From Acidobacteriota bacterium (lineage in GTDB: Bacteria; Acidobacteriota; Thermoanaerobaculia; Multivoradales; UBA5704), in NCBI GenBank assembly GCA_040005235.1, contig JBDTZG010000035.1, forward strand, positions 1-55,311: a DNA stretch of 55,311 nt, read 5' to 3'. Below, one piece after another: positions 1 to 49,306 of this stretch. A program made the position numbers and the translations under genes. The notes under the pieces are model-generated. The model searched no databases, was not told the DNA's origin, and was given only the letters and a program-made list of their open reading frames with translations. The stretch's first letter is position 1, and each line of letters begins with the position of its first letter.

Positions 1-74
1 GGCCGACTTGGCAAATCCTCGAAACTTGGAGCCGCTTGTGGGCTCCCTCCCCGCATGAGACCGCTCCGGCGTGC

Positions 75-90
75 TGGCACGCTCCCTGCT
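75..90 (+). promoter_or_regulatory. sigma54 (-24/-12) promoter upstream of the DP-EP-like gene
   Basis: TGGCACGCTCCCTGCT has exact GG-N10-GC spacing and one mismatch to TGGCAC-N5-TTGCW; it lies about 90 bp upstream of ATG 181, and a GAFTGA activator is encoded nearby. Confidence 0.7.
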
Positions 91-180
91 CTAAGACCTT
101 TTCGTCCCGTTGTTCAACCGCAGCCTCGGCGCCCCGCGCGTCCGAGCGCCTCATTTACCGCGAGCAGGAGGAAACTTGCC

Positions 181-639
181 ATGCCCGAAATCCAGACCAA
201 AAGGATCACGCTCCTTTGGACCATGGAGGGCAAAGCCCCGGAGTGGATCTTTTCCGGCGACCTCGATTCGGATCCCGCGCCCGTTCCCTTGGATCGCCAC
301 CGGCTGACGATCGATTCGGCCTCGGCGGTGATCGAGGTCAATCTCCATCCGGACAGCACCCAAGGCGCGGACTTCGATCTGCGGCCCGTCGCTTGGCGCG
401 GTGCGCGCCCGTCGTGCATGGGGGTCGGCAGATGCCGGAGCGGTCGGCGTCTCCTCATCACCGACGTGAACGAGAAGAACGCCGAGCACGGCTTCCGGGT
501 TCGCATCGCCTACGAAGGACGGACCTACCTCTCGCCCGATCCGACGATCCTCAACACCGAACCGACCTATCTGGGGCATCAACCGGCGCAGCCGGAGGCG
601 GAGCGGCGCTTCAAGGAGGGGGCGCTCCAGGTCGTTTGA
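181..639 (+). CDS. small hypothetical protein (152 aa), DP-EP family-like
   Basis: AGGAG RBS before ATG 181; beta-rich sequence ending YEGRTYLSPDPTILNTEPT (DP...EP motif); 3' end overlaps the convergent kinase gene by 29 bp. Confidence 0.6.
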   Translation: MPEIQTKRITLLWTMEGKAPEWIFSGDLDSDPAPVPLDRHRLTIDSASAVIEVNLHPDSTQGADFDLRPVAWRGARPSCMGVGRCRSGRRLLITDVNEKNAEHGFRVRIAYEGRTYLSPDPTILNTEPTYLGHQPAQPEAERRFKEGALQVV

Positions 640-3187
640 GGCGCTCTTGCAGCTCGGGGTCCTCGCGCAGGGGAGCGAGCCAGGGGAGGTCGAACCAGCG
701 CGGCTCGACTCCACGCGCGAGGGCCCGTTCGGCGTTGAGCAGGGCGGAGGTGCGATCGCCGACCAGGGTATAGACCAGCGCCACTTCGTACGCCGCCTGG
801 GCGTTGTCGGGCGCGAGCGCCAGAACCTGCTGGGCGGCTGCCACCGCGTCGCGGTGGCGCTTGAGGTGGGCCAAAGCCTGCGCCCGTGCGCTCAAATGCT
901 GCCAGCTGCCTTCGGTCGCGGGGTCTCGGCCGATCCGGTCGAGCACCCCGCGATAGGCGGCCTCCGCCGCGAGGCGGTCGCCGGAAAGTGCGAGGGCATC
1001 GGCTAGGTTCAAGGCGACGAAAGCGTTGCCGGGCTCGAGCTGGAGCGCCTGGCGGAACCGCGCCACGGCTTGGGCGTAGCGGCCGAGCAGCAGATGGGCG
1101 AGCCCCAGGTTCGCGAGCTCTGGCGCCTGGGGTGAGCGGCGCACGAGTTTTTCGTAGAGCGTCGCCGCGCGCACCGGGCTGCCCGACAGGAGCTCGATCT
1201 GGGCGAGCAGCGAGATGCCGGTCCACGAATCCGGATCGCGCGCGAGCAGCTCTCCCAGGTGCCGGCGCGCCGCGGCGGTCTCGCCATAGCGGTACTCCAT
1301 GTCGGCGAGGCGCGAAAGGTGCTGCGAGGACGGTCGCCGCGCCGCCGCCTCGCGCATCCGGGACAGCGCGCCGGCACGGTCGCCGCGGCGTTCGAGCAGC
1401 CGAGCGGAAAGCATTTCGACGCCGGGATCGCCGGGCTCCAGGCGTTCCAGGTCGGCGAGCGCTTCGGCCGCGCGGTCGAGCCGCTCGCCGCGCAGCGCGA
1501 CCTCGAAAAGCGCCACCTGCGGCCGGGGATCGGCCGGGGCGAGCGCGAGGGCGGCTTCGAGCACCTGCTCGGCGCGTTCCAAATCCACCGGATCGCGGCG
1601 CGCGGAGTAGCGGTAGCGCCGGGCGTCCGCTTCCAAAATCGCCGCCTCGACAAAGCGCGGCGAGCCGCGCCGGATCGCCGCGACCCCGGCGAGCAGCGCG
1701 TCGATCGATAGATCCGCGCGGCGCGAATCGAGCTCGCGGCGCAGTTGGACGTAGCGCGCGTAATCCGCCGGCCGCACTTCGAGGTCGAAAAGGCCCGGAC
1801 GGCGACGGAGCTCGGGATAACCATTCTTCAGCTGCCCTTCGATCGCCTCGGCGATCAGCAGCGGCTGATGGAGAGGCACCTCGAACCCGGCGGTCCAGAG
1901 CAGGACTCCGTCGCTGCCGCGCACGCGCCGCAGCTCGATCCGGCACCCCGGGCCGGCGCAGGCGACGCCCGAGACGATCACCTCGTCCGCCGCCGTGGCA
2001 CGCGCCAACTCGCGCGGCGTGCCGGCCACCGGATCGACCTGCTCGGGGGCAAGGGGCGACACCCGTTCGAGGCCGGTGAGCGCGCGGAGGAGCGCGAGGC
2101 GCACGGCTGCGGCGGTTTCCGCCTCGTCGTCCGACGGGTTGCCGTCGATCGAGGGCGCCGCCACCGCGACCAGCAGGAGAGGGCCAGGCCAGTGCGCGAG
2201 CCACCAAAGGCCGAAAAAAAGCGCCACCGCGAGGCTCGCCGCCACCCAAACCGCGGATCGGGGGAAAACGCGGCGCGGCGCCAGGTTGGAGCGATCGGGG
2301 AGGATGGGGTCGGACACGACGGTCGGTTCTTCGTGCGATCCACGAGGTGCGTTGCCAAACGCAGCATCGCCGCCCGAGCCCTCGGCGGCTTCCAGGGCCA
2401 GCGAGCGCGCCACCTCCAGGGCGCTCTCGGGCCTTCGTGCCGGATCTTTTTCGAGCAACCGATCGACCAGCCGCGAGACCGACTCCGGGGTCTCGGGACG
2501 AACTTCGCGGAGCGGCGCTTGGCGCTCGGTGCAGATCCGCGCCAGCACCTCAGGCGCGTCGGGACCGGCAAAGGGCGGGCGCCCCGCGATCATCTCGTAG
2601 AGCAGGGAACCGAGCGAGAACAGGTCCGAGGCCGGTGCTAGAGGCAGCCCGCGCGCCTGCTCGGGCGACATCGAACGGAAGGTGCCCAGAATCGCGCCGG
2701 TTCGGGTGAGAGTGGGGTCGCCCTCCAGCTGGGCCAAGCCGAAATCGAGGATCTTCGCGTGGTCGAGCGCGGTGATCATCACGTTGTCCGGTTTCAAGTC
2801 GCGGTGGAGGACTCCCCGCGCGTGGGCCGCGGCGAGCCCTTCGGCGATCTCGCGCCCCAAGCGCAAGGCTTCCCGGCAAGACAGGGGTTCACCGGCCAGC
2901 CGGTGACGGAGCGATTGTCCATCGACCAGCTCCATGACGATCGCCGAGCCCCGCTCGGATTCCACGATGTCGTGGATCTGCACGATCGACGGGTGGCTTA
3001 ACCCCGCGGCCGCCCGCGCCTCGCGCCGAAAGCGTTCGCGGCTGGTGGTACCCGCGAGATCCGGGCGGACCAGTTTGATCGCCACCCGCCGGTCGAGGCG
3101 CTCGTCGTAGGCGGAAAACACCTCGCCCATGCCACCCGCGCCGAGGCGGCCTTCCAGGCGATAGGGACCGATCCGGTCGTCGGCCAT
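611..3187 (-). CDS. membrane Ser/Thr protein kinase with C-terminal TPR repeats
   Basis: LGAGGMGEV, VAIK, HRDLKPDN, DFG and MSPEQ motifs; TM helix VWVAASLAVALFFGLWWLA; TPR-like helical repeats. Confidence 0.93.
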   Translation of the reverse strand: MADDRIGPYRLEGRLGAGGMGEVFSAYDERLDRRVAIKLVRPDLAGTTSRERFRREARAAAGLSHPSIVQIHDIVESERGSAIVMELVDGQSLRHRLAGEPLSCREALRLGREIAEGLAAAHARGVLHRDLKPDNVMITALDHAKILDFGLAQLEGDPTLTRTGAILGTFRSMSPEQARGLPLAPASDLFSLGSLLYEMIAGRPPFAGPDAPEVLARICTERQAPLREVRPETPESVSRLVDRLLEKDPARRPESALEVARSLALEAAEGSGGDAAFGNAPRGSHEEPTVVSDPILPDRSNLAPRRVFPRSAVWVAASLAVALFFGLWWLAHWPGPLLLVAVAAPSIDGNPSDDEAETAAAVRLALLRALTGLERVSPLAPEQVDPVAGTPRELARATAADEVIVSGVACAGPGCRIELRRVRGSDGVLLWTAGFEVPLHQPLLIAEAIEGQLKNGYPELRRRPGLFDLEVRPADYARYVQLRRELDSRRADLSIDALLAGVAAIRRGSPRFVEAAILEADARRYRYSARRDPVDLERAEQVLEAALALAPADPRPQVALFEVALRGERLDRAAEALADLERLEPGDPGVEMLSARLLERRGDRAGALSRMREAAARRPSSQHLSRLADMEYRYGETAAARRHLGELLARDPDSWTGISLLAQIELLSGSPVRAATLYEKLVRRSPQAPELANLGLAHLLLGRYAQAVARFRQALQLEPGNAFVALNLADALALSGDRLAAEAAYRGVLDRIGRDPATEGSWQHLSARAQALAHLKRHRDAVAAAQQVLALAPDNAQAAYEVALVYTLVGDRTSALLNAERALARGVEPRWFDLPWLAPLREDPELQERLKRPGAPPP

Positions 3188-3190
3188 CCG

Positions 3191-4795
3191 TCAGGCCAAG
3201 CCGAGCTGGCGCAACCGCCGCACCAGGCCGCGCTTGGAAACTTCCAAGGCCTCGGACATCGCGTCGAGGTCGCCCGCGGCGCGCGCCAGTGCTTCGCGCA
3301 GCTCATCCGCGCCGAGGTCCGAAGAGCGCCGCAGGCTCGGGCTCTTGGCGATCCGTTCGTAGAGCGAGGTCCGGGCGATGCCGAGCGCGTCGGCCGCCTC
3401 GCGAATTCGCCAGCGGTTCGCGCGGAGCGCTTCGGCCAGCTCGTCCTCGCCCACGTCCTCCGGCCGCCGCCGCGTTTCGGACGGGGCGTCCTGGCGCCGC
3501 TCCGGCGCCGTTCGGTCCGAAGGCGCGCGCTCCGGCCCGCTGGCCCGCGCGGGTTCGAGCATCTGGGCCACCTGCCGCGCCATCGCGGGCTCGCCCCCGT
3601 CAAGCCCCGCGAGCACGATTCGGCGCACCGCATTCTTCAGCTCGCGCACGTTGCCCGGCCAGTCGTGGGCGGCGAGTGCGGCCACCAGCCGGGCGGGAAG
3701 CGCGGGAGCCTCATCGAGCACCGCGCCGGCCGCCTGGACCTCCGCCCGGACGAAGGAGCCGAAGAGCCGGCCGAAATCGTCGCGCCGGGCGCGCAGCGGC
3801 GGCAGGCGGATCTCGTATCCCGCGAGGCGATGGAGAAGCGGCGCCCTGAATCTTCCCGCCGCGATCGCCGCGGGAAGATCGGCGTCGGTCGCGGCGATCA
3901 GCCGGACGTCCACGCGGAACGGCGCGTCGCCTCCCACGGGGTGGACCTCGCCGGTTTCGAGCGCGCGCAACAGGAGTGCCTGCACCTCGGCCGGCATTTC
4001 GCCCACCTCGTCGAGCAGAAGGGTACCGCCGTCCGCCCGGCGCAGGTGGCCGCTACGCGCGCGGTCGGCTCCCGTGAATGCGCCGCGCGCCACGCCGAAC
4101 AGCTCGGCCGCCGCGAGCGTCGGGGGCAAAGCCGCCATGTTGACCCCCACGAACGGCCCGCGGCCGCGTCTTCCGGAAGCGTGGATCGCGCGCGCGACGA
4201 GTTCCTTGCCGGTGCCGGTTTCGCCGCTCAGGAGAACCGGAAGATCCGTCGCCGCGACCCGCCGGATCTCGCGCCGAAGCCCGGTCATCGGCGCGCTCTC
4301 CCCCACCAGGCCGTAGTCAAAGGGACCGTTCGAATCGGCCGCGCCCGGATCGACCGGGCTCAAGCAGAGGACGACACAGTTGCCGAGCAGCAGGATCGCG
4401 CCGCGCGCGATCTCCTGCTCCGACAGCGCACACGATTCGCCGAGCGGCGCGCCGTTGACCTCGACGCTCATCGGGCTGCCGGTGCGGACTAGAAGAATCC
4501 CGCCCGCCTTGCCCGGCCGAATCTCGATCGGACGGCGGCTCAGGTGAGAATCGGCGAGTGGACGCTCGCCGCCACGGCCGGGCGCCGCGAACGCGGGCTC
4601 AGAGCGTCCGAGCCGTTCCGTGCGCCCGGCAGCCCAACCGGTCAGAGCCGCACGATCTCCCGCGCGGTCTCGCTCTGGATGGTGCAAGATCGTCAGGCCG
4701 GGGACCCGCAACGCGTCGGCGAGCAGGAGGCTATCGGTTTCTACTCGCGTCTCTGAATCGAGCTTTTCCCGAAGCACCCGCGATGATTTGGGCAC
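3191..4795 (-). CDS. sigma54-dependent enhancer-binding protein (FHA-like N-terminus, AAA+ domain, Fis-type HTH)
   Basis: GETGTGKE Walker A, GAFTGA, LLLDEVG, WPGNVREL; N-terminal GR..SHLSR..VNG FHA-like region; two C-terminal HTH-like segments. Confidence 0.93.
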   Translation of the reverse strand: MPKSSRVLREKLDSETRVETDSLLLADALRVPGLTILHHPERDRAGDRAALTGWAAGRTERLGRSEPAFAAPGRGGERPLADSHLSRRPIEIRPGKAGGILLVRTGSPMSVEVNGAPLGESCALSEQEIARGAILLLGNCVVLCLSPVDPGAADSNGPFDYGLVGESAPMTGLRREIRRVAATDLPVLLSGETGTGKELVARAIHASGRRGRGPFVGVNMAALPPTLAAAELFGVARGAFTGADRARSGHLRRADGGTLLLDEVGEMPAEVQALLLRALETGEVHPVGGDAPFRVDVRLIAATDADLPAAIAAGRFRAPLLHRLAGYEIRLPPLRARRDDFGRLFGSFVRAEVQAAGAVLDEAPALPARLVAALAAHDWPGNVRELKNAVRRIVLAGLDGGEPAMARQVAQMLEPARASGPERAPSDRTAPERRQDAPSETRRRPEDVGEDELAEALRANRWRIREAADALGIARTSLYERIAKSPSLRRSSDLGADELREALARAAGDLDAMSEALEVSKRGLVRRLRQLGLA

Positions 4796-4928
4796 TCTCG
4801 AAGTCTAACTCAGGCACCGCTCGGGTGCTGCCTTGTCGCACTACTCGTGGTGCAGTGCAATCTCCAGTTCGATCGGCGCTCCCTCCGAGTTGCCGGCATA
4901 GGTCGCGTCGGGGGCTCGAGAACATGAT

Positions 4929-4959
4929 TGGTGCCGACTGGTGCAGCATGGTGTATGGT
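4929..4959 (+). promoter_or_regulatory. three TGGTG direct repeats with 10-bp period overlapping a leaderless promoter (-10 TATGGT)
   Basis: TGGTG at 4929, 4939 and 4949; TATGGT at 4954-4959, 6 nt before ATG 4966. Confidence 0.55.
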
Positions 4960-4965
4960 CTTTGT

Positions 4966-5223
4966 ATGCCAACCGTCCAGAGTGTCGTCCGCCAGAGCGT
5001 CAGCCTCCCCTCCGCGGTCGCCCGGCGCGTCAAGTCGCTCGCGAAGTCGAATCGGACCAGCGCCAGCCGGATTCTGGTCGAGTTGATCGAGTCGGGTCTC
5101 GAGGCGAAGGAGCAGCAGAAGAAACACTTCCTCGACCTCGCGGACCAACTCATAGAGGCCCGCGATCCGGAGGTGCAGGGCAGGCTCAAGGAGGAACTGG
5201 CCCGCTTGACCTTCGGTGAGTGA
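4966..5223 (+). CDS. ribbon-helix-helix (CopG-like) DNA-binding protein, putative antitoxin
   Basis: VRQSVSLPSAVARRVKSLAKSNRTSASRILVELIESGL fits the RHH beta-alpha-alpha pattern; 85 aa; TGATG coupling to the next gene. Confidence 0.75.
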   Translation: MPTVQSVVRQSVSLPSAVARRVKSLAKSNRTSASRILVELIESGLEAKEQQKKHFLDLADQLIEARDPEVQGRLKEELARLTFGE

Positions 5224-5468
5224 TGCCCAAGATCCAGTGGACCGGTCTCCCTCTCGCTCTACGAGATCATCTGTTCGAGAGGCTTCGTGAGCGAAAGATC
5301 ACAGCGGAAGACCTTTATCGATTGAAGCAGTGGCGGGAGTCCGAGCCTGACGCCCCGGAAGGTCTCTGGTACAAGGACTTCACCTCATTCAAAGTCTGCG
5401 GCGAAGGCCAGTATCCGAAGACCTTTCTGCTCGGCGGACAACCGGCGAAAGGCAAAAAGTTGGCCTGA
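5223..5468 (+). CDS. small hypothetical protein (81 aa), putative partner or toxin of the RHH protein
   Basis: translationally coupled by TGATG overlap; protein-like composition (WYKDF, KVCGEG.YPKTFL). Confidence 0.7.
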   Translation: MPKIQWTGLPLALRDHLFERLRERKITAEDLYRLKQWRESEPDAPEGLWYKDFTSFKVCGEGQYPKTFLLGGQPAKGKKLA

Positions 5469-5538
5469 TTCGCGGGTCGCGAAGGGTCGTTCGCGATCTC
5501 CTGAATTTGAGCGCCGGAGGCCCTGAAGGTCGACCGGT

Positions 5539-6060
5539 CTATCTTGACCGCAAATTGGCGACGATTCGTTCCTGGGCCGCTTCCCAGTCGGCCGGGGAGG
5601 CGAAGAAGCGCGGCAGGAGAAACACCGCCTGGTTCATTCCGACGTAAACGAGAGCGATCTCGCCGCGAATCCGGTAGCCATAGAGCGCAGCCCAAGGGAT
5701 GTTTCCCTGGGCGAACGGGCCCTGCCACGCCAGTCCGGTGGCCGAGAGGCTGCCGGAAAAGGGCGCTCGGAGGGCCGCGTTGCTCCGCCAGGCCTTTCCC
5801 GAGGCGCGGCGCGGGACGACGAAAAGGAAGATCGGGAAGATCAGCAGGAACAGCGTCCCCGGGAGCATTTTTAGGGGATGGGAGACGAAATCCTGATAGT
5901 TGGCGTTGAGCAAGACCAGGACGAACGCCGCCAGGTAAATCCAAGGCCAGATCCGAAAGATCTGCGGCAGCAAGGCGAGTTGAATCTTCCGGTGCTCCGC
6001 CTCAGTGAGCTGGCCGGAAAAGGGGATCTCGACGTCGTCGGCTTCGGTAGGGAGGTTCAT
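5539..6060 (-). CDS. YcxB-like membrane protein
   Basis: two TM helices followed by a YcxB-type C-terminus (..IPW....LLPRFF). Confidence 0.65.
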   Translation of the reverse strand: MNLPTEADDVEIPFSGQLTEAEHRKIQLALLPQIFRIWPWIYLAAFVLVLLNANYQDFVSHPLKMLPGTLFLLIFPIFLFVVPRRASGKAWRSNAALRAPFSGSLSATGLAWQGPFAQGNIPWAALYGYRIRGEIALVYVGMNQAVFLLPRFFASPADWEAAQERIVANLRSR

Positions 6061-6716: not shown

Positions 6717-8126
6717 ATGAGACGATGGTGTATCGCAACGGTTTTTGCAGTGACCGCGTGGATCGCCCTAGCCGGACCCGCCGTCGCGAAAGTTTCCGAC
6801 GCCAAGCTTCACGCCGATCTCGAAGCGTTGCTCGGCTCGGACGCGCGGGCCTTCAGCGCCGCCTGCAAAAGAGCCCAAAGCTCGCGCGATCCGCGCTATG
6901 CGGCCCCCCTGATCGAGCTGCTGCGCTTTCCGCTGGGTCCAGCGAAGGCCGCGGTGGTCGCGGCCCTCGGGGCGATCGCCGGACCCGCGGCTAGGATTGG
7001 CCAGGGCGAGCCCTGGCACGACGGTTTCACCTGGCTGGGTGCGCAAAAAGACCTGTTGCTGCCGCCGGGCTTCACCGATTGGAAAGGCCGGCTGCTCGCG
7101 GCGCGGGTCGATCCGGCGCTGCAGCGTTTCTTCGATCCCAAAGCCGTGAGCCGTATTCCGATCGAACGGATTCAGTGGGGTGGGGTAAAGAAAGACGGGA
7201 TTCCCGCGCTCGACCGGCCGGCGCTGATCGCGGCGGCCGAGGCGACGTATTTGACGCCGGAAGACCGCGTTTTCGGGGTGGAGATCCAGGGCGACGCGCG
7301 CGCCTATCCGCTGCGCATCCTCGACTGGCATGAGATGGCGAACGACGTCGTGGGAGAGACACCGGTTTCGCTCGCCTACTGCACCCTCTGCGGAGCGGGC
7401 GTGTTGTACGGGACGAAGGCGGGCGATCGGACGTTCACGTTCGGCTCGTCCGGATTGCTCTACGAGAGCAACAAGCTGATGTACGACCGCCAGACCGAAA
7501 CGCTTTGGAACCAGCTGACCGGAGAACCGGTGACCGGGCCGCTCGCCGGCTCCGGGCTGCGGCTCGAACGGCTGCCGATCGTGGTGACCACCTGGGCGAA
7601 ATGGAAAAAGGACCACCCGGCGACCCGGGTGCTCTCGCCGCGCACCGGGTTCGATCGCGACTACACCCCGGGAAAGCCGTACGGGCCCTATTTCGCCAGC
7701 CCGGACCTGATGTTTCCCTCCCTCGGCGCAAGCCCGCGAATGGCGCCGAAGACTCAAGTTTTCGCCCTGCTGCTCGGCGGCGCGGCCAAAGCCTATCCGC
7801 TCGCCGATCTGCCGAAGCCGGGCGTGATCTCGGATCAGATCGGCGGTGCCGGAGGGGTTGCCGGGGTGCCCGTGGTCCTGGTGATCGACGAAACCGGCGC
7901 GGTGCGCGCCTACCAGCGGGAAGATCGAATGTTCGGGCCGGTGCTTCGCGCGGCGCTCGGCTCCAGCTTCCTCGCCGATCAGGAGGGCCACGCCTGGAAG
8001 CTCGGCGAAGACTCGCTCAGCGGAGCCTCAGGGCGCCGCCTCGCCCGGCTGCCGGGCCACGAGGCGTACTGGTTCGGCTGGTCGTCGTTCTATCCGACGA
8101 CGGAAGTCTGGAGCCCGAAGCCGTAG
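6717..8126 (+). CDS. exported DUF3179-domain protein
   Basis: AGGAGG RBS; signal peptide MRRWCIATVFAVTAWIALAGPAVA; DGIPALD, AYPLRILDWHEMAND, YCTLC, SGLLYESNKLMYDRQT, YWFGWSSFYP. Confidence 0.85.
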   Translation: MRRWCIATVFAVTAWIALAGPAVAKVSDAKLHADLEALLGSDARAFSAACKRAQSSRDPRYAAPLIELLRFPLGPAKAAVVAALGAIAGPAARIGQGEPWHDGFTWLGAQKDLLLPPGFTDWKGRLLAARVDPALQRFFDPKAVSRIPIERIQWGGVKKDGIPALDRPALIAAAEATYLTPEDRVFGVEIQGDARAYPLRILDWHEMANDVVGETPVSLAYCTLCGAGVLYGTKAGDRTFTFGSSGLLYESNKLMYDRQTETLWNQLTGEPVTGPLAGSGLRLERLPIVVTTWAKWKKDHPATRVLSPRTGFDRDYTPGKPYGPYFASPDLMFPSLGASPRMAPKTQVFALLLGGAAKAYPLADLPKPGVISDQIGGAGGVAGVPVVLVIDETGAVRAYQREDRMFGPVLRAALGSSFLADQEGHAWKLGEDSLSGASGRRLARLPGHEAYWFGWSSFYPTTEVWSPKP

Positions 8127-8198: not shown

Positions 8199-8720
8199 TC
8201 AAGTTTCCGGATCAGCGAGCAGCTTGCGAAGACCGGACAGCGGAAGCCACAGGGTCAAAGGGTGATCGGGCAGGGCCTCGAATTCGTAGCGTGAGTAGAA
8301 GGCTTTCGCCTTCTCGTGCTTGGCGTCGATCACGACAGCTATGATTCCCACGCTCTCCGCAAGGCGCAAACAGCGGGATAAGGCATCAACCAGTAGATCA
8401 TCACCCAGACCCTTACCCTGTTGGCCGCGATCGGCAGCGAGCCTCGCAAGTCTCGCGATCGGCAAAGGGAAGCTGGGGAACCGCCGAGTCGCATTCGGCG
8501 GTAAACTGGCTCGATCGATCGCGCCGACGGCCAGAGAGTAGTACCCCAAGATTTGGGTTGGCACGGTCGGATCCACGGCAACGAACGTGCGGGCGACACC
8601 CGATTCCTGATTCTGCCGCGCAAATCGTGCGAGATATTCGTCCAGGGCCGGCTCGCCGCAATCGAACCGGGAGCGGTCGTGATCTCGTTGGAGCGGCTCA
8701 ACGCGCCAATCAGCCGGCAT
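8199..8720 (-). CDS. GNAT acetyltransferase toxin (TacT/AtaT-like)
   Basis: HDRSRFDCGEPALDEYL, ARLA.D...QGKGLG, IDAK....AFY; overlaps the DUF1778 antitoxin stop. Confidence 0.9.
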   Translation of the reverse strand: MPADWRVEPLQRDHDRSRFDCGEPALDEYLARFARQNQESGVARTFVAVDPTVPTQILGYYSLAVGAIDRASLPPNATRRFPSFPLPIARLARLAADRGQQGKGLGDDLLVDALSRCLRLAESVGIIAVVIDAKHEKAKAFYSRYEFEALPDHPLTLWLPLSGLRKLLADPET

Positions 8721-9000
8721 CGCGCTCGCGCCGCTTCTGGTAACGACGCACTGCGGCCTCGAGTTTCGGTCGACGCCGATCGTCATCCAGGGCGGCGAGG
8801 AAGGCCTCCCAGTCGCGAGCCGTCAACCTCAGGGTCTCATGTTCGGCAACCACCTCTTTGGCCCGGTCGGCGGCGATGGACACCAGGAAGCTCGACAACG
8901 ACATTCCGCGATACGACGCCGCTCGGGAGAGGAGGGATTTGAGCCCGGCGGACACCCTTAGGTCGATTCTTTCGTCGCGCTGGTCGGTTGCAACGGACAT
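8710..9000 (-). CDS. DUF1778 antitoxin (TacA/AtaR-like)
   Basis: ERIDLRVS..K.LL.RAA...GMSLSSF..., L...DWEAFLAALD; upstream of the GNAT toxin. Confidence 0.9.
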   Translation of the reverse strand: MSVATDQRDERIDLRVSAGLKSLLSRAASYRGMSLSSFLVSIAADRAKEVVAEHETLRLTARDWEAFLAALDDDRRRPKLEAAVRRYQKRRERDAG

Positions 9001-11011: not shown

Positions 11012-12610
11012 TCAATCTTTCTGTTGGATCTGGCGCCGCAGAAGCTCGTTTTCGAACGCCATGCCAACCTGGGCGGTCGCCAGCTCCAAAATGTCGATGT
11101 CTTCGATCGGCTGGTTGCGGTCCCCGTTGTCGGCGTAGATTACCGAGATCACCCGCTGGGCGCCGAGGACCGGGAAGACCACGACTTGGCCGGCGCGCGG
11201 CGGACCGAGCAGAAGCCGCAGCTCTTCGGGGAGGGTCGCGCCGTCGAACGTGACGTTTTGCACCTCTCCGGAATCGAACGCCCGGGAGAGCGCGCTGTCG
11301 ACGTCGAGCGGCAGGTTTCTCCCCCGCGTCCGCTCGGCGAGCGGCCGGCCGTCCGCGGCGGCACCGAACGCGCCGAGCGCCACCAGGTGATCGCGCCGGA
11401 CGAGGAACAAAATCGCCCGCTCGACCGACTCGGAAATGATGTGCATCAGATTGAGCGCCACGGTGGCGGAGATCAAGCCGGAGCGCAGGTCGCCGTAGAC
11501 CCGGCGCAGCCGGGCGACGCCGGTCCGGACTTCGCGCTGCGGTTCGGGGGCCGGGGCGGCGGCGCCTCCGGAAATCCCTTCACGCCGGCTCTCCAGCAGG
11601 TTCTGGACACAGGCCGCGACAGCCTCGACCTCGGCCGGCAGGGTGGCGAGAAACCCCGCCCCATAGACCCGGGCGACGGGGGTTTCGGGATCGATCACTG
11701 CGACCAGCGAGGGGCGCGGATGCGAATCGGACAAGGCGCGGAACCGCTCCGGGGCGAGCGCGCCGTGGCGCAGGTCGGCGACCACGATCGGCGGCGCGTC
11801 GCCCGGCAGCGCCCGCCCGGCCTCGGCCAGCTCGACCACCCGGCAGCGCCCGCCCAGGCGGGCGAGCACCGGCAGCAGGCGGCGCAGGAACACCTCGTCC
11901 TCGCAGACGATCTGCACTTCGATCTCGGCGGCGAGCAGCAGCTCCTCGTCGAGCAGGGCTTCGACCGCGATCTCGCGATGGCTGACCGCGGCGGGAGCCG
12001 CGGACGCGGCGGCCCCATGCGCCGGAACCACCGTTGCGGGACCGATCGGCAGGGCGCCGGATCCAGTCGAGACGCCGGGCGGGTGGCTCAACGACTCGCG
12101 GCTCCGCTCGTCGAAGATTCGCGCCGCTTCGAGCAGCACCATCTGGGTGTTGATGTCGCCGTCCGGCAGCACGTCGCTCGGATAGATCGCGATGTCGTCG
12201 ATCGGCCGCAGATCGTCGATCGCGAAATCGAACGTGCCGGTTTCCCACAGCAGCACCTCGCCCACGCCTTGCTCGATCTGACGGGCGATCACGTCCCGCA
12301 GGCTCTCGGGGGAGAGAGCGCCGGATTCGATCAGCTGCTGGCCGAGCGAACGGCGCTCGGAGCCCGCGGCACGCTGTTTCCGGATCGCCTCGTCGAGGTC
12401 CACCCGGGAGATCAGCGCCGAGGAGACCAGAAGGTCGCCGATCTTCGGCGTCTTCGGCGTCTGCGCGCTCACCAACCGGCCGAGATGGAAGCCGATCATC
12501 GCGCGGTCGCGACCGCGCAAAAGGTCCAGGGTTCCGGTCCGCCGACCGAGATGGATGAACTGCATGACGTCGGCGACCGAGACGTCCTGGAGGCTGCCGG
12601 AGATCCCCAT
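11012..12610 (-). CDS. DUF4388 (PatA-N) domain protein with degenerate receiver-like and GAF-like domains
   Basis: N-terminal GSLQDVSVADVMQFI..GRRTG.L and W..GTFDF..LLEAARIFDE; C-terminal GAF-like VIYADN. Confidence 0.82.
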   Translation of the reverse strand: MGISGSLQDVSVADVMQFIHLGRRTGTLDLLRGRDRAMIGFHLGRLVSAQTPKTPKIGDLLVSSALISRVDLDEAIRKQRAAGSERRSLGQQLIESGALSPESLRDVIARQIEQGVGEVLLWETGTFDFAIDDLRPIDDIAIYPSDVLPDGDINTQMVLLEAARIFDERSRESLSHPPGVSTGSGALPIGPATVVPAHGAAASAAPAAVSHREIAVEALLDEELLLAAEIEVQIVCEDEVFLRRLLPVLARLGGRCRVVELAEAGRALPGDAPPIVVADLRHGALAPERFRALSDSHPRPSLVAVIDPETPVARVYGAGFLATLPAEVEAVAACVQNLLESRREGISGGAAAPAPEPQREVRTGVARLRRVYGDLRSGLISATVALNLMHIISESVERAILFLVRRDHLVALGAFGAAADGRPLAERTRGRNLPLDVDSALSRAFDSGEVQNVTFDGATLPEELRLLLGPPRAGQVVVFPVLGAQRVISVIYADNGDRNQPIEDIDILELATAQVGMAFENELLRRQIQQKD

Positions 12611-12617
12611 CGCGGTT

Positions 12618-13379
12618 TTAAGCTCCCCGCGCCAGCTTGACCAGGCTTTCGAGCGTCCGCAGCTTCCGATCCTTCGCCGCGAACAGCCGGGCGGCGAACA
12701 GGGCGGAGGCGGCGTGCGCGGAGAGCAGGTCGAGCAGGTCGCGGTCTTCGGGCCGCAGGATCGGCTTATGGTCCAGCAGCTTCAAGAGCACGATCGCGCC
12801 GACGATCTCTTGTTGCACCCGCAGGGGGACCGCGGCGAGGGCGGGCGAGTCTTCGGTCGGACCGAGGCGGAGCAAGCCGTCTTGGAGCGTCGCGTCGATC
12901 ATCCGATCGCCGCCTTGGTAGGAGTCGCCGGCAAACGGGGCCTGGCCGCCCGGTCCCAAGCCCTGGCGCAGGGCGATCTCGTAATCGTCCCCTTCTTCGC
13001 GCCGGAGCAGGAGGACGAACTGCTGGGCGCCCAAAAGGTCGATCGCGATCTCGGCGATCGTCGCCTGCACCTCGGGGGGCGAGAGCGTCGCATGCAGCTG
13101 GTAGGTGGCGACGTAGAGGCTCATCAAGCGGCCCGACTGGTGCTCGGATTCGACCAGCCGGGAGGCGAGCTCCTTGACGTCGGAATCGGTGGTCGACAGG
13201 CGGTGTTCCAGCTCTCGGATGCGCTCCGCGGGCTTCGCCACCAGCGGCTCCTGGGCCGTGAAGCTCCCTTCGAGCGCGCGCAGCAGGTCGTTGGCGCGCT
13301 CGACTGTCGTGCGCAGTTGCTCGACCAGGTCGATCTGCAGGTCCGGCCGATGGCCGGCGAGGGCGTCGATCTCGCTCAA
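12618..13379 (-). CDS. coiled-coil plus GAF domain protein
   Basis: heptad N-terminus, LYVATYQLHATL, AAVPLRV...VGAIVL...DRDLLDLLSAHAASAL. Confidence 0.82.
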   Translation of the reverse strand: MSEIDALAGHRPDLQIDLVEQLRTTVERANDLLRALEGSFTAQEPLVAKPAERIRELEHRLSTTDSDVKELASRLVESEHQSGRLMSLYVATYQLHATLSPPEVQATIAEIAIDLLGAQQFVLLLRREEGDDYEIALRQGLGPGGQAPFAGDSYQGGDRMIDATLQDGLLRLGPTEDSPALAAVPLRVQQEIVGAIVLLKLLDHKPILRPEDRDLLDLLSAHAASALFAARLFAAKDRKLRTLESLVKLARGA

Positions 13380-29667: not shown

Positions 29668-32600
29668 CTAGAGCTTGAACGGAACGCGTAGCCGTGTCCA
29701 CATCTTGACCCGGACGCCGCCTTTGGTCGCAGGGCGATACTGAGCGCCTCGCGCAGCGGCGAGCGCGGATTCGTTGATTCCCACTTTTTGTTTGATCGGC
29801 TCGACCAACCGTGCCTCTGCAACCCTGCCGTTCTCGTCGACCAGCACCGCCAGGACGACCACGCCCTGCACGCCAAGCTGCTTGGCGAGCGCAGGATATC
29901 CCGGTTTCGGAGCGCTGACAAGCTGAGGAACGCTCACTCCGGGACCCGGCTCGACTAGATCCCCTTCGCGAACCCGCGGAGCTTCTTCCGCGGCGGGCGC
30001 AGGGGGCTCGGGCCTGCGCTCCTCCGCCTTTGCCGGTTCGGGCGTCGGCTCGGGGCGGCGCTCCTCCGGCTGCGGCGCCGGTTCTGGGGGAGCCGGGGCA
30101 GGGGCGGGCGAAGAGGCAACGGGAACGGGCGTCGCCGCTTCTGGGCTCTTTTCGGCCGCGGGGGTACCTGACGCCAGCTGCTCGCGTAGCTTCTTCTCAT
30201 CTTTCGCGAATTGCTTTTGCAGCTCCTCGCGCTTCTTCGCCATGGCTTCGTCGACCAGTCCGGTGAGATCGGTCTGCAGCGCGGGAGCCGTCGGGGTGCC
30301 CGCGGGTCCCGCCGCGGGAGCCGGAACGACTGCCGTACCCGGCGCGGTTCCGGGCGCCGGGACCGTCGGCGCCTTCGCCTTGCCACGGGCAAACCAAAGG
30401 CCTCCGGCCACTGCAGCGATTACCAACGCCGCCAGGGCGAGCCAGAGCGCGGTCCGATTCTTGCCCGTCGGCGCCGCGGCTGGCACCTCTGCAAGAGGTG
30501 CAACCGCCTCGATGACCGGCCCGGCCTCGGTAGGCCCCGGTTCGGACCTCGTCGACAGGGCGGTGATGCTCGGCACGGGTAGCGAGGAGATCGTGGCCGC
30601 CGCGGGGACCACGGAGATAGGCGTCTGCGACGCGGGCGGCGCAACGGGAACCGGCGCGGCGGCCGGAACGTAAGCCGGAGCCGGAGGGGCCGGCGCCGCG
30701 GCTGGCGGTGCAGGAGCTTCCGTCGGGATGGGCGCCTCTTCGAGCTTGCGGACGTAGGCCGCGAGGTCGGTGTGCGAAGGCGTGGGCTTCTGCTCGTAGA
30801 GCACGGCGCCCAGGCGCTGTTCCATCTCCCCCGCGGACTGGAAGCGATCGGCCGGATCGTGGGCGAGCGCCCGGCGGGCGATCGAGTCGATCTCGGCCGA
30901 GATCGACGGATCGATCTCGCGCGGGCTCTTCACCTTTCCTTCGCGCACGGCTTCGAGGACTGAGATTTCGCTGTCCCCGGCGAACAGCCGCTCGCCGGTG
31001 AGCATTTCGAACAGCAGCGTGCCGAGCGAGAAGATGTCGGAGCGCGCGTCGACCGGCCGGCCCCAGGCCTGCTCGGGCGACATGTACTGGAGCTTGCCCT
31101 TGAGGGCCCCGATCTGCGTCTGCCCCGCCTGGGTCACCGCCTTCGCGATGCCGAAATCGCACAGCTTGATGTCGCCGTCGCGGCTGATCAGGACGTTCTG
31201 GGGCGATACGTCGCGGTGGACCAGCCCGAGCGCGCGCCCTTCGAAATCCCGCTTGTGGTGGGCGTGATCGAGCGCTCCGGCAACGTGATGCGCGATCAGC
31301 AGCGAGAGCCCGACGGGGATCGGCAACCGTTTCTGGCGGGCGAGGTTGCCGATCGTCCGCAGGTCACGCCCTTCGACGTACTCCATCGCAATGAAGTAGT
31401 CGTTGGCGATTTTGCCCAGATCGTAAATGTGGATGATGTTCGGGTGCGACAGCTGCGCCGCGAGCTTCGCCTCGTCGATGAACATGCTCACGAACTCGGA
31501 GTTGTGAGTCATGTGCGGCAGGATCTTCTTGATCGCCACGGTCTTTTGAAACCCTTCGAGACCACGCATGCGCGCCTTCCAGACCTCCGCCATGCCGCCG
31601 ACCGCGATCCGTTCGAGCAGCGTGTATTGCCCGAACCGCTGATCGTCCGCCTCTTCGGTGTAGACCGCAATCCGCTGCGTGGCGAGCGAATTGGCCGGCT
31701 CGACACTCGCGCCGAGCGTCGGCGGCGGAAGGGGAGGCGGAACCGCCACGGGCGGCTCGACCGGAGGGGGCACCGGCGCCTGGCGCAGGAGCGGCTCGGG
31801 GGTCCTAACCGGCGGCGGGGCGGGAGCGGACGGCGGCAGGGGGGCCGGGGGTCGTTGCGCCTGCGGAGTCGGCGGGCTCACGAAGGAGGGGGCCGTCGAG
31901 GGCAGGGCGCTCGCGGCGCCGGGGAGGGTCGTCGGGCGCACGGGGCGCGCAAGTTGCTCGATCGCGGCGAAATCGAGATCCGCCTTCGAGCGCACGCCAG
32001 TCCCCTCGCTCGGCTTCGGCTGCGGCGCGGCGGGAGCAGCAGGACGAACCGGCGGCGATGGAGGGATGGCGGCCGGGGCCGCCGGGGGTGCCGGGCGCGG
32101 CGGGGCGGCGCTCGAGCGTCCGCCCATTTGGAGGCTCGACAGAGTCTTAGAGAGCAGCGCCTCTACGTCCGTCGCCGGCAGCTCCGGAGGTTTCTTGGCC
32201 GGCGGAGTGGGCGGCTTCGGGCGCGGCAGGCCGCCCATCCCAAGCACGCCGGAGAGCGTCTGTTCGAGCTTCCGCTCGATCGCGCCTTGATCGGTCCCCG
32301 CCGCGGCGAATCCGGTCGGCAGCGCGGTGGCCGGGGCCAGCGAGGTCGCGGGCCGGCGCAGGTCGTCCTCGACCTCGGCGAGCACGTCGCCGAAGATGTC
32401 CTTCGAGGTCAACTGCTGGTCGTCCGCTTGAGACACCCGCGCCCGGGCTGGGTCGCGGCGGGCGGCGAGCGCGCGGCGCACCGCGACCTGGAGATCCTGG
32501 TCGGAAAACGGCTTCACCAGAAACTCATCGGCCTCGATTGCCGCGGCATCGACGCCGTCCAACGATTCGGGCATCAACGCGACGACTCCGGGGCCGCCGG

Positions 32601-32805
32601 AGCGGCGGGAGAAACTGATGGCCAACGCCTCGACCCCCGGCGCCTCCGCGCTCGCGATCACCAGATCGGGCGCCTCGGATGCCGCCGCCTGGAGAGCCTC
32701 GGCCCGGCCGCCGACAAAATGCAGCCGGTAGCCCTCGACGGAAAGCGCATCCTGAATGCGCTCGATATAGCGTTGTTCCCGCTCGATGACGAGGATCAGG
32801 GCCAT
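29668..32805 (-). CDS. pseudo-receiver / Pro-rich linker / Ser-Thr kinase / TM / TonB C-terminal fusion protein
   Basis: N-terminal REC fold (PDLVIAS..FLVKPF); kinase [23 protein letters not shown]; [21 protein letters not shown]; TonB-C P.YP.LA...GVQG.V...V.VDE.G.V...YRPA...G. Confidence 0.9.
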
Positions 32806-34391: not shown

Positions 34392-35210
34392 ATGGCTTTC
34401 CAGGGCTCGCTCAAGGAGCTACCGCTCCCCGACATCATTCAGCTCGTGTCCGTCTCGGGCAAGACAGGCGTCTTCGCGCTCACCCGCGAGGGCGACGTCA
34501 ACGGCGAGATCTTCCTTCGCGGCGGCCAGATCGTCCACGCCCATTCCGGCGAGCTGGAAGGCGAGGAGGCGGTGTACGAGCTGGCGATCTGGCCGGAAGG
34601 CGAGTTCCTGTTCACCGCCGGCCAAGAGACCGACCGGACCACGATCCAAAAGTCGAACACCAACCTCCTGATGGAGGCGGCGCGCCGGATCGACGAATGG
34701 CAGGTTCTGTCGAAGCGCATCCCGTCGACCCGTCTTGTGCCGGTCTTCACCCAGCAGGCGACTACCACCTCGGTGTCGCTCACGCCGCACGAGTGGACCT
34801 TGATCTGCAAAATCGATGAGCGCCGCTCGATCGAGGAGATCGCGGTCGGCCTGGGATTGAGCCCGTTCGAGACCTGCAAGCTGCTCTACGGCCTGATCAC
34901 CTCCGGCCTGGTGGCGCTCAAAGAGGACTTCACCAAGCTGCGCACCGACCGCCTGCTGCGCTTGGATGCGGCGGCTCTCGCCGAGGTGAACGAGGCGATC
35001 CACGGCCAGGCCCGCGCCCTGCTTTCGAGCCATCCGAAGCAGGGCGATCTTGAAGCGCCGCTGCGGATGAGCAAGACCGGCTTAGAAGCGGGGCGTGGGT
35101 TCGAAGCCGTGCTCGACTTGGTGCGCGCCGACGAGAAGGTGGTTTCGGCAGCCCTCGGCCCCAACCAGTCGAAAGCTTTCCTCGACCGAGTTGCGCAGCT
35201 GCTCGCCTGA
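34392..35210 (+). CDS. DUF4388 domain protein
   Basis: GSLKELPLPDIIQL....KTG, G.IVHA, W.EGEF.F, LLMEAARRIDEW; followed by a wHTH-like segment. Confidence 0.88.
   Translation: MAFQGSLKELPLPDIIQLVSVSGKTGVFALTREGDVNGEIFLRGGQIVHAHSGELEGEEAVYELAIWPEGEFLFTAGQETDRTTIQKSNTNLLMEAARRIDEWQVLSKRIPSTRLVPVFTQQATTTSVSLTPHEWTLICKIDERRSIEEIAVGLGLSPFETCKLLYGLITSGLVALKEDFTKLRTDRLLRLDAAALAEVNEAIHGQARALLSSHPKQGDLEAPLRMSKTGLEAGRGFEAVLDLVRADEKVVSAALGPNQSKAFLDRVAQLLA

Positions 35211-46858: not shown

Positions 46859-46862
<4 letters not shown>
46254..46862 (+). CDS. ECF sigma factor, TIGR02999-type (kinase-associated)
   Basis: L.PLVY.ELRR.A, TLQTTSLVNEAYLRL, HFFAVAAQAMR.ILVD.AR...KR, VVELRFF.GLT..E.A. Confidence 0.92.

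Positions 46863-49306
<2,444 letters not shown>

What the first reader, a model, noticed from the sequence alone, without database searches (positions are those of the whole stretch)
75..4795. Candidate self-contained circuit: TPR Ser/Thr kinase, FHA-sigma54 activator and a sigma54-driven DP-EP-like gene
Seen: an operon-like pair (3 bp gap) of a GAFTGA-containing sigma54 activator with an FHA-like N-terminus and a membrane TPR kinase converges on a 152-aa orphan gene whose upstream region has a near-consensus -24/-12 promoter (75-90). Known: FHA domains bind phospho-Thr, and FHA-EBPs paired with Hanks kinases are typical of myxobacteria. Inference: the kinase senses an external ligand, acts on the EBP and switches on the small gene. 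I do not recall a described system with this output.
Basis: partly seen in the sequence, partly recalled or inferred. Interest (0 to 1): 0.75.

Follow-up and report, generated by a model that had tools for sequence, protein, structure and literature searches.

The report
Kinase–FHA activator pair with sigma54-driven gene
A membrane Ser/Thr kinase and a sigma54 activator with a hidden phospho-threonine-reader domain sit beside a small self-cleaving-peptidase-like gene that carries a conserved sigma54 promoter, which makes a plausible but unproven signalling circuit that is probably larger than this window shows.

Summary
The EBP (3191-4795, minus) and the TPR kinase (611-3187, minus) are 3 nt apart. 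They converge, with a 29-nt overlap, on a 152-aa gene (181-639).

CTGGCACGCTCCCTGCT at 74-90 is the best sigma54 promoter match in the 55 kb. It is a conserved island in the only related locus I could read (L001, a Thermoanaerobaculia MAG).

The EBP N-terminus gets no Pfam FHA hit, but it folds as an FHA domain. It keeps the phosphate-binding Arg and Ser and has lost the canonical His and Asn. A Thr in its N-terminal tail is conserved in 40 of 43 relatives, as in GarA, OdhI and DgcB.

The small protein is a divergent DP-EP/DUF1888 member. It has the fold of SO1698 and keeps the SPDP cleavage motif.

No other contig shows all three genes.

In L001 the promoter lies beside a perfect 36-bp palindrome and a second, divergent sigma54 box. 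The window breaks off inside that palindrome, so the circuit is probably not self-contained.

Verdict: partly supported; a new variant of a known kind.

The parts
1..7 (.). GGCCGAC: the apparent last bases of an upstream palindromic enhancer-like element (GACGTC-GGCC repeats). The rest lies beyond the end of the window.
   Evidence: It aligns with the 3' end of the perfect 36-bp palindrome at L001:7815-7850. Window bases 1-17 are 12 of 17 identical to L001. That it is an EBP binding site is inference.
74..90 (+). Sigma54-type -24/-12 promoter, CTGGCACGCTCCCTGCT (GG at 76-77, GC at 88-89). The transcription start is expected near 100-102.
   Evidence: Best-scoring site in the window. The ortholog CTGGCATGAGCCCTGCT sits at L001:7897-7913 and is the best-scoring site in L001. 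It forms a 14-of-17 identity island in an upstream region that is 45% identical. The start site is not mapped.
164..171 (+). Ribosome-binding site (AGGAGGAA) 9 nt before the ATG at 181.
   Evidence: Read from the sequence. All 8 close homologs start with MPEIQT, which supports the ATG at 181 over the ATG at 55.
181..639 (+). 152-aa DP-EP/DUF1888-like protein, the candidate output gene. No hydrophobic leader was seen by eye at MPEIQTKRITLLW (not tested).
532..543 (+). Codons for S118-P119-D120-P121, which match the SPDP self-cleavage site of SO1698 (S114-P115-D116-P117).
   Evidence: S118 and D120 are invariant and P121 nearly invariant in 17 family members. The motif aligns with SPDP of 3njh. 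Cleavage was not tested.
611..3187 (-). 858-aa Hanks-type Ser/Thr kinase. Kinase domain aa 9-254 (2426-3163); single hydrophobic segment aa 311-333 (2189-2257); C-terminal TPR-rich domain (about 698-1672).
   Evidence: Activation-loop T161 is T in 27 and S in 8 of 35 relatives.
3191..4795 (-). 534-aa sigma54 enhancer-binding protein. AAA+ domain aa 163-329 (3809-4309); GAFTGA (4067-4084); HTH_8 aa 451-484 (3344-3445).
4352..4705 (-). Divergent FHA-fold domain of the EBP (aa 31-148). R64, S86 and R87 are invariant. The canonical His is Pro89 and the canonical Asn is Met109.
   Evidence: AF2 model, pLDDT 83.7. Foldseek best hits are OdhI, GarA, CT664, FhaA and DgcB FHA domains. Profile alignment to CT664. 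Column counts.
4748..4750 (-). Codon of Thr16 in the N-terminal tail of the EBP, a candidate phospho-acceptor and ligand for the FHA domain.
   Evidence: T in 40 of 43 aligned relatives; 2 have a gap there and 1 has Ala. The tail just downstream of Thr16 (aa 17-27) is modelled with pLDDT below 50. Phosphorylation is inferred.

Best explanation
This is a one-step Ser/Thr-kinase route to sigma54 transcription.

Proposed mechanism:
1. The membrane kinase has a cytoplasmic Hanks domain, one transmembrane segment and an outward-facing TPR domain. It autophosphorylates in response to an unknown envelope or external cue.
2. It then controls the co-transcribed EBP through the EBP's divergent FHA domain. 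The most likely way is that it phosphorylates the conserved Thr16 in the EBP's flexible N-terminal tail. The FHA domain then binds that tail, in cis or between subunits, as in GarA/OdhI and DgcB. This changes how the AAA+ ring assembles.
3. The active EBP binds GACGTC-GGCC repeats upstream of the -24/-12 box and lets sigma54-RNA polymerase open the promoter of the DP-EP gene. By analogy with L001, a divergently transcribed gene just outside this window is likely switched on as well.
4. The DP-EP product is a small cytoplasmic beta-sandwich protein that probably cuts itself at Asp120-Pro121.

Shown here: the domain identities, the gene order, the conservation of the promoter in one ortholog, and the conservation of Thr16, R64 and S86.

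Inferred: every functional arrow in the mechanism.
For: - Domains and motifs.
- A 3-nt gap between the EBP and kinase genes.
- FHA fold and profile homology, E 7.4e-4.
- R64, S86 and R87 are invariant in 43 of 43 relatives, and T16 is conserved in 40 of 43.
- The top structural matches include FHA proteins described as regulated by their own phosphorylated N-terminal tail: OdhI and GarA (mechanism recalled) and DgcB (abstract of PMC6733907).
- The promoter is the best site in the window and in L001 and is a conservation island.
- L001 has the same convergent DP-EP/kinase arrangement with the same 29-nt overlap, and the kinase C-terminus is 83% identical.
- L001 has a 36-bp perfect palindrome about 50-80 bp upstream of the -24 box.
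- This is the only EBP found in the 55 kb.
Against: - Only one other locus could be read, and it is a close relative (DP-EP 74% identical). Promoter conservation therefore rests on a single comparison.
- No contig other than the window shows all three genes. DP-EP/EBP contig-length matches were 0 of 8 x 50 pairs.
- The 10,756-nt contig that appears to carry DP-EP and a full-length kinase lists no EBP relative.
- The EBP-kinase pair seems conserved in relatives at about 50% identity, where no close DP-EP relative is known. The module may therefore have other targets.
- The target gene is convergent and about 4 kb from the EBP start. It is not in the usual divergent or upstream position.
- The FHA domain lacks the canonical His (Pro in 38 of 43, Ala in 5) and Asn (Thr in 28, Met in 8 of 43). 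No Pfam FHA hit appears for any of the 51 proteins of the family.
- rpoN is not in the window.
- The window-wide chance of a box this good is about 0.07, and the plain pattern is not enriched.
- The palindrome is not found in the window, because the window ends there.
Confidence: 0.45

Rival explanations
1. The small gene is sigma54-dependent, but another EBP of the genome activates it. The adjacent kinase-EBP operon controls other promoters elsewhere, and the neighbourhood is synteny between close relatives without a regulatory link.
For: EBP-kinase pairs appear in relatives at about 50% identity, whereas the DP-EP subfamily has only 8 close relatives. The genes are convergent, not divergent. 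No contig besides the window shows all three. EBPs act in trans, so position does not constrain them. STKs are common in this genome, with 3 in 55 kb.
Against: That accounts for the 4 best-scoring kinase relatives apart from the window's own protein. No other EBP lies in the 55 kb.
Confidence: 0.25
2. The kinase and EBP do work together, but in the opposite sense. The FHA domain docks on the phosphorylated activation loop or juxtamembrane region of the kinase. This holds the EBP at the membrane and keeps it inactive until a signal lowers kinase activity.
For: FHA proteins are recruited to phosphorylated kinase activation loops: PknB-GarA (title of Villarino 2005, seen only in the reference list of PMC6213207) and PDB 6i2p among the fold hits. 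Activation-loop T161 is conserved as T or S in 35 of 35 relatives.
Against: It does not explain why Thr16 in the EBP tail is conserved in 40 of 43 relatives. Nothing here distinguishes the sign of the regulation.
Confidence: 0.15
3. The -24/-12 match is fortuitous. The small gene is read from an ordinary housekeeping-sigma promoter, and the three genes are unrelated neighbours.
For: The plain pattern is not enriched. 4 of 60 resampled windows contain a box at least this good. Only one ortholog was available for comparison.
Against: The box is the top-scoring site in both the window and L001. In both loci it has the right orientation and sits about 90 nt before the ATG. It is the only conserved island upstream of the ribosome-binding site apart from the palindrome tail. 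No sigma70-type consensus was found in 1-5600, although the promoters of this phylum may not fit that scan.
Confidence: 0.1

Closest known systems
FHA-domain enhancer-binding proteins of Myxococcus xanthus (Jelsbak, Givskov and Kaiser, PNAS 2005; seen here only as a reference entry; content recalled)
   Same: A sigma54 AAA+ activator whose N-terminal regulatory domain is an FHA domain instead of a receiver domain. This implies input from Ser/Thr kinases.
   Different: Pfam does not recognise the FHA domain here, and it has Pro and Thr/Met in place of the canonical His and Asn. It is fused to a tail with a conserved Thr. The gene lies 3 nt from a specific TPR kinase. The host is Thermoanaerobaculia-like (Acidobacteriota), not a myxobacterium.
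GarA/OdhI (Actinobacteria) and DgcB (Bdellovibrio): FHA proteins switched by their own phosphorylated N-terminal tail
   Same: They are the top structural matches of the EBP N-domain. A conserved Thr sits in a flexible tail N-terminal to the FHA domain. For DgcB, the abstract of PMC6733907 states that the activating ligand comes from the protein's own N-terminal region.
   Different: The output domains differ: an enzyme inhibitor or a GGDEF cyclase there, a sigma54 AAA+ ATPase with an HTH here. The GarA/OdhI mechanism is recalled. Phosphorylation of Thr16 was not tested.
PknH-EmbR of Mycobacterium tuberculosis: a Ser/Thr kinase and an FHA-containing transcription factor
   Same: A Hanks kinase acts on a transcription regulator through its FHA domain (title of Molle 2003 in the reference list, and a table row, of PMC6213207). 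That the two genes are neighbours is recalled.
   Different: EmbR is a SARP-type activator that works with the housekeeping holoenzyme. It is not a sigma54 AAA+ activator.
SO1698 of Shewanella oneidensis (DUF1888/DP-EP; PDB 3n55 and 3njf-3njn; Osipiuk et al., JBC 2012)
   Same: The 12 best PDB fold hits of the small protein are all SO1698 entries, with target-normalised TM-scores of 0.68-0.79. The SPDP site is conserved. PDB titles call it an aspartic peptidase. PMC11655445 used it as a self-cleaving endopeptidase reported to cut at low pH.
   Different: Sequence identity is 16-18%. The window protein falls below the Pfam cut-off, 12.2 against 25 bits. Lys98 of SO1698 aligns with Glu102. The window protein has a further 27-aa C-terminal extension (residues 126-152) beyond where the SO1698 chain ends; residues 132-152 are modelled as disordered. 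The 2012 paper itself was not held.

Membership tests
Bacterial enhancer-binding protein (sigma54 activator) | Sigma54 interaction AAA+ domain | tested here: met
   PF00158, 1.4e-58, aa 163-329.
Bacterial enhancer-binding protein (sigma54 activator) | GAFTGA loop and Walker A motif | tested here: met
   GAFTGA at aa 238 and GETGTGK at aa 191.
Bacterial enhancer-binding protein (sigma54 activator) | C-terminal Fis-type HTH for enhancer binding | tested here: met
   PF02954, 7.1e-11, aa 451-484. The DNA target was not tested.
FHA domain (PF00498) | Match to the family's sequence model | tested here: not met
   No Pfam FHA hit even at E<=10. 0 of 51 family proteins carry PF00498 among their precomputed domains. 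A profile of 15 N-domains does reach one solved FHA domain, 3gqs, at E 7.4e-4.
FHA domain (PF00498) | FHA beta-sandwich fold | tested here: met
   Model pLDDT 83.7. The listed best PDB hits, all 23 with E<=0.001 among them, are FHA domains, with target-normalised TM-scores up to 0.80.
FHA domain (PF00498) | Phosphate-binding Arg (GR loop) and Ser (SxxH loop) | tested here: met
   R64 and S86 are present in 43 of 43 relatives. S86-R87 aligns with the SR of the SRQH motif in CT664. The roles of these residues are recalled.
FHA domain (PF00498) | Conserved His of SxxH and Asn of the NG loop | tested here: not met
   Position 89 is Pro in 38 and Ala in 5 of 43. Position 109 is Thr in 28 and Met in 8 of 43.
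FHA domain (PF00498) | Binds phospho-threonine peptides | not testable with these tools
   Needs ITC or a pull-down with a pThr16 peptide or with the phosphorylated kinase.
Hanks-type Ser/Thr kinase | Kinase domain with catalytic motifs | tested here: met
   PF00069, 3.2e-47. VAIK at 35, HRDLKP at 128, DFG at 148, SPE at 174.
Hanks-type Ser/Thr kinase | Membrane receptor topology with an outside sensor domain | tested here: inconclusive
   One hydrophobic segment at aa 311-333, followed by about 520 aa with TPR repeats. The orientation is inferred, and no ligand is known.
DP-EP / DUF1888 (PF08985) | Match to the family model above the curated cut-off | tested here: not met
   12.2 bits against a cut-off of 25, E 0.25. 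7 of 17 members of alignment A3 match at E<=0.01. 6 of 9 rows carry PF08985.
DP-EP / DUF1888 (PF08985) | Fold of SO1698 | tested here: met
   The 12 best PDB hits are all SO1698, E down to 1.1e-7. An Atlas DP-EP cluster gives TM 0.69/0.82.
DP-EP / DUF1888 (PF08985) | SPDP self-cleavage motif | tested here: met
   S118 and D120 are invariant and P121 is present in at least 90% of 17 members. The motif aligns to SPDP of 3njh.
DP-EP / DUF1888 (PF08985) | Lys98 and Asp37 of SO1698, both of which were mutated in PDB entries | tested here: inconclusive
   Lys98 aligns with Glu102. Asp37 aligns with Arg41, and an invariant Asp38 lies three residues earlier. The alignment is weak in that loop, and no superposition was possible.
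DP-EP / DUF1888 (PF08985) | Autoproteolysis | not testable with these tools
   Needs purified protein and mass spectrometry.
Sigma54-dependent promoter | GG and GC elements ten bases apart, close to consensus | tested here: met
   TGGCAC-N5-CTGC at 75-89, one mismatch. Top weighted score in the window.
Sigma54-dependent promoter | Conserved upstream of orthologs | tested here: met
   1 of 1 readable ortholog (L001), 14 of 17 bases identical. The other 7 homologs lie on contigs that could not be fetched.
Sigma54-dependent promoter | Upstream enhancer site, rpoN in the genome, and a mapped start | tested here: inconclusive
   L001 has a 36-bp palindrome. The window is cut there. No rpoN was found in the window. 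The start site was not mapped.

The most novel reading that the evidence does not exclude
A sigma54 activator is switched by its own phospho-tail. The TPR kinase phosphorylates Thr16, and the atypical FHA domain (Arg and Ser kept, His and Asn lost) clamps the tail and gates assembly of the AAA+ ring. This would be the first mechanistic link between a Hanks kinase and sigma54 transcription. The bidirectional enhancer of three GACGTC sites one helical turn apart fires two divergent sigma54 promoters. One of them makes a DP-EP protein that cuts itself at Asp120-Pro121 and frees a conserved 32-residue C-terminal peptide, which acts as the real effector or signal.
Probability: 0.15. Interest if true: 0.7.

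Novelty: new variant of a known kind. Interest (0 to 1): 0.5.

Why it matters
FHA-type sigma54 activators have been known from genome analysis for about twenty years. To my recollection, no kinase, phospho-site, enhancer and target promoter have been laid out together for one of them.

This locus offers all four parts in less than 5 kb, in a phylum (Acidobacteriota) that has almost no experimental genetics.

It would also give the DP-EP/DUF1888 family its first regulatory context. As far as I recall, the only studied member is a structural-genomics protein known for self-cleavage and nothing else.

It also shows that a whole clade of FHA regulatory domains (51 proteins here) is invisible to Pfam, so counts of FHA-type activators are probably too low.

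Tried and rejected
- Complex prediction. I folded the kinase domain (aa 1-290, 35-row alignment) with the EBP N-region (aa 1-160, 15-row alignment). The result was no verdict, score 0.08 against a mark of 0.32. It counts neither for nor against binding.
- The search for related loci.
- The listing of cluster members. I wanted accession order to test adjacency. The database was switched off.
- Papers not held. Osipiuk 2012 and Jelsbak 2005.
- Palindrome search. No match in the window with up to 3 mismatches.
- Inverted repeats. None in window 1-200 or 4780-5240.
- 5' leader. Window 101-185 has no unusual RNA fold, z-score 0.37.
- Rfam. No family anywhere in the window.
- Sigma70-type scan. Nothing in 1-5600.
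- PADLOC. Only generic kinase and AAA+ matches, and none for DP-EP or P0069, so I rejected a defence-system reading.
- P0069, the divergent gene in L001. No Pfam family, no homolog in the window, and Atlas scores of at most 0.81, which are not informative.
- An error of mine. Protein 1 (L001:6819-7637) was translated out of frame. That row is void, and the correct frame is 6872-7636.
- Literature. Two searches for bEBP/FHA/Hanks/sigma-54 and related terms found no paper describing an STK, FHA-EBP and DP-EP system. The DUF1888/DP-EP search found 14 papers and listed 13. I read passages in two; one only names DP-EP in a list of Pfam domains and one only cites Osipiuk 2012. By their titles the other 11 are unrelated.
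Full report
**Observation**

- The EBP gene (3191-4795, minus strand, 534 aa) ends in TGA. After three bases (CGG) comes the ATG of the kinase gene (611-3187, minus strand, 858 aa).
- The kinase stop at 611-613 lies inside the 3' end of the small plus-strand gene (181-639, 152 aa). The two converge with a 29-nt overlap.
- The ATG at 181, not the one at 55, is the real start. It is preceded by AGGAGGAA, and all eight close homologs begin MPEIQT.

**Kinase**

- It has a Hanks kinase domain (PF00069, 3.2e-47) and a long TPR-rich C-terminal region.
- The catalytic motifs VAIK, HRDLKP, DFG and SPE are present.
- There is one hydrophobic segment, at about aa 311-333. A periplasmic or outward-facing TPR domain is therefore likely, but it is inferred.
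- Activation-loop Thr161 is Thr or Ser in 35 of 35 aligned relatives.

**Enhancer-binding protein**

- It has the Sigma54_activat domain (1.4e-58), the AAA lid and HTH_8. GAFTGA and Walker A are intact.
- Residues 1-160 match no Pfam family even at E<=10. None of the 51 proteins that share this N-domain carries PF00498 among its precomputed domains.
- An AlphaFold model built on 43 sequences (mean pLDDT 83.7) finds only FHA domains as its listed best PDB matches, all 23 with E<=0.001 among them. They include OdhI, GarA, CT664, FhaA, DgcB, ArnA and Rad53 FHA1, with target-normalised TM-scores up to 0.80.
- A profile of 15 N-domains alone reaches the CT664 FHA domain at E 7.4e-4. That alignment places S86-R87-R88-P89 on the SRQH motif and Met109 on the Asn of the NG loop.
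- Across 43 relatives, R64, S86 and R87 never vary. Position 89 is Pro in 38 and Ala in 5. Position 109 is Thr in 28 and Met in 8.
- The domain is therefore a real but atypical FHA domain. It keeps the two residues that I recall as the main phosphate contacts and has lost the canonical His and Asn.
- Thr16 lies in the N-terminal tail, just before the stretch modelled with pLDDT below 50 (residues 17-27). It is Thr in 40 of 43 relatives; 2 have a gap there and 1 has Ala.
- A conserved Thr ahead of an FHA domain is the arrangement of GarA/OdhI (recalled) and of DgcB. For DgcB, the abstract states that the activating ligand comes from the protein's own N-terminal region (PMC6733907).

**Small protein**

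- Pfam DP-EP (PF08985) scores only 12.2 bits, E 0.25.
- However, 6 of the 9 rows of the homolog search carry PF08985, and 7 of 17 members of a wider alignment match it at E<=0.01.
- A profile of those 17 hits SO1698 (3njh) at E 0.013.
- The 12 best PDB matches of the model (pLDDT 80.8) are all SO1698 entries (E down to 1.1e-7, target-normalised TM-scores 0.68-0.79). The ESM Atlas agrees.
- The PDB titles call SO1698 an aspartic peptidase. A later paper used it as a self-cleaving endopeptidase reported to cut at low pH (passages of PMC11655445). The original paper (Osipiuk 2012) was not held. What I say about its Asp116-Pro117 cleavage is recalled, and it is consistent with the mutant list.
- The SPDP site is kept as S118-P119-D120-P121. 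Lys98 of SO1698 aligns with Glu102. The equivalent of Asp37 is unclear.
- Residues 121-125 are modelled as a strand of the sandwich, and 132-152 are disordered.
- The subfamily is rare. There are 9 hits among 1.84 billion representatives and one locus among 185,579 species genomes.
- DP-EP belongs to the Pfam cupredoxin-like clan (passage of PMC9038741).

**Promoter**

- CTGGCACGCTCCCTGCT at 74-90 has one mismatch to TGGCAC-N5-TTGC.
- On its own that pattern is unremarkable: 4 matches against 2.5 expected.
- A weighted score, whose consensus and weights I recalled, puts the site first in the window at 14.6 of 15.3, with the next best at 12.9.
- Resampled sequences contain 0.04-0.1 such sites per 55 kb, and 4 of 60 had at least one.
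- The stronger argument is comparative. In L001 (Thermoanaerobaculia MAG, contig JBBRUC010000048.1) the orthologous gene has CTGGCATGAGCCCTGCT at the same distance from its ATG, and that is the best site in L001.
- The box is 14 of 17 identical in an upstream region that is 74 of 163 (45%) identical overall. The only other island is window 1-17.

**What the window does not show**

- In L001 a perfect 36-bp palindrome (7815-7850) lies about 50-80 bp upstream of the box. It consists of three GACGTC units separated by GGCC, so the units are 10 bp apart.
- On its far side, on the other strand, is GTGGCATGGCGGTTGCC (7740-7756). This is the second-best sigma54 score in L001. It lies about 100 nt before the ATG of a divergent 254-aa gene (P0069, 6872-7636) that has a good ribosome-binding site.
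- Two sites of that quality are expected 0.26 times in L001, and 1.5% of resampled sequences have two. Here both lie in one 365-bp intergenic region and face outward.
- The window starts with GGCCGAC, the last seven bases of that palindrome. The protein table gives 55,311 as the longest contig that carries these proteins. The window therefore probably is the whole contig, and the assembly probably broke in the palindrome (inference).
- P0069 has no Pfam family, no relative in the window and no informative Atlas neighbour.

**Co-occurrence**

- Only L001 could be read. It repeats the convergent DP-EP/kinase arrangement with the same 29-nt overlap, and the kinase C-terminus is 83% identical. The contig ends before the EBP could appear.
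- As a substitute I compared the contig lengths that the protein searches report.
- Kinase and DP-EP relatives share an exact contig length 3 times (10,756; 4,127; 9,786), against 0.015-0.03 expected. With the 6,473-nt one below, these are the four best-scoring kinase relatives apart from the window's own protein.
- Kinase and EBP relatives share a length 5 times (6,473; 12,947; 6,931; 25,053; 87,322), against 0.22 expected. Four of these pairs are only about 50% identical to the window's proteins.
- DP-EP and EBP relatives share none. The evidence is indirect, and it cuts both ways. The EBP-kinase pair behaves as a conserved module, and the DP-EP gene accompanies this kinase subfamily. However, the full triplet is documented only in this window, and the module is much more widespread than this DP-EP subfamily.
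- rpoN is not among the genes of the window, which is otherwise ordinary chromosome with two further Ser/Thr kinases.

**Mechanism and rivals**

My preferred reading, with confidence about 0.45 for the whole chain, runs as follows:
1. An envelope cue is sensed by the TPR kinase.
2. The kinase phosphorylates Thr16 of the EBP tail, and the FHA domain captures the tail.
3. The AAA+ ring assembles on the GACGTC repeats.
4. Sigma54 open complexes form at the DP-EP promoter and probably at a divergent one.
5. A DP-EP protein is made that cleaves itself at Asp120-Pro121.

The rivals are that a different EBP serves the promoter (0.25), that the FHA domain docks on the phosphorylated kinase and regulation has the opposite sign (0.15), and that the box is a chance match (0.10).

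**Comparison with what is known**

- FHA-type EBPs are known from Myxococcus (Jelsbak 2005; reference entry only).
- The kinase-FHA-transcription factor logic is known from PknH-EmbR (PMC6213207 reference list and table).
- The phospho-tail switch is known from GarA/OdhI and DgcB.
- Three things are new here: the combination, the Pfam-invisible FHA clade, and a DP-EP gene as the output.
- My searches found no paper that links DP-EP/DUF1888 with sigma54 or an EBP.
- I class it as a new variant of a known kind, with interest 0.5.

**Left unchecked**

- Accession-order adjacency.
- The supplements and full text of the two key papers.

Noticed in passing
L001:7740-7850 and L001:6872-7636 (minus strand): A perfect 36-bp palindrome (three GACGTC units 10 bp apart) lies between two outward-facing sigma54-like boxes. 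The second box precedes a 254-aa protein of no known family (P0069). This looks like a bidirectional sigma54 enhancer.
   Followed up: partly
window 1-7: The window, which is probably the whole contig, begins with the last 7 bases of that palindrome. The assembly seems to have broken inside it, and the upstream half of the regulatory region is missing.
   Followed up: partly
window 4966-5223 (+) and 5223-5468 (+): Two small genes overlap in ATGA, directly upstream of and divergent from the EBP operon. By eye, the first has a ribbon-helix-helix-like N-terminus. Neither has a Pfam or PADLOC family. This may be a toxin-antitoxin-like pair.
   Followed up: partly
window 46254-46862 (+) and 46859-49306 (+): An ECF sigma factor gene overlaps by 4 nt the start of another Ser/Thr kinase with TPR repeats. 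This is a second kinase-to-sigma-factor pairing in the same window.
   Followed up: no
window 29668-32805 (-): A 1045-aa protein has a Ser/Thr kinase domain in the middle and a TonB C-terminal domain at the end, which is an unusual fusion. It is the third kinase in 55 kb.
   Followed up: no
window 11012-12610 (-) and 34392-35210 (+): Two proteins carry DUF4388 domains, one next to a GAF-domain protein (12618-13379).
   Followed up: no
window 8710-9000 (-): A TacA-like antitoxin gene (PF08681, 1.3e-21). I did not look for a partner toxin.
   Followed up: no
L001:6141-6416 (+) and L001:6416-6802 (+): Two small abutting ORFs with gene-like codon bias lie between P0069 and an Lhr-type helicase gene. 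By eye they look like an antitoxin/PIN-type pair. I did not scan them.
   Followed up: no
window 181-639 (Atlas neighbours): Some Atlas clusters nearest to the DP-EP protein carry PF20301 (pNTSase1) on 11-16% of their members. I do not know what links the two families.
   Followed up: no
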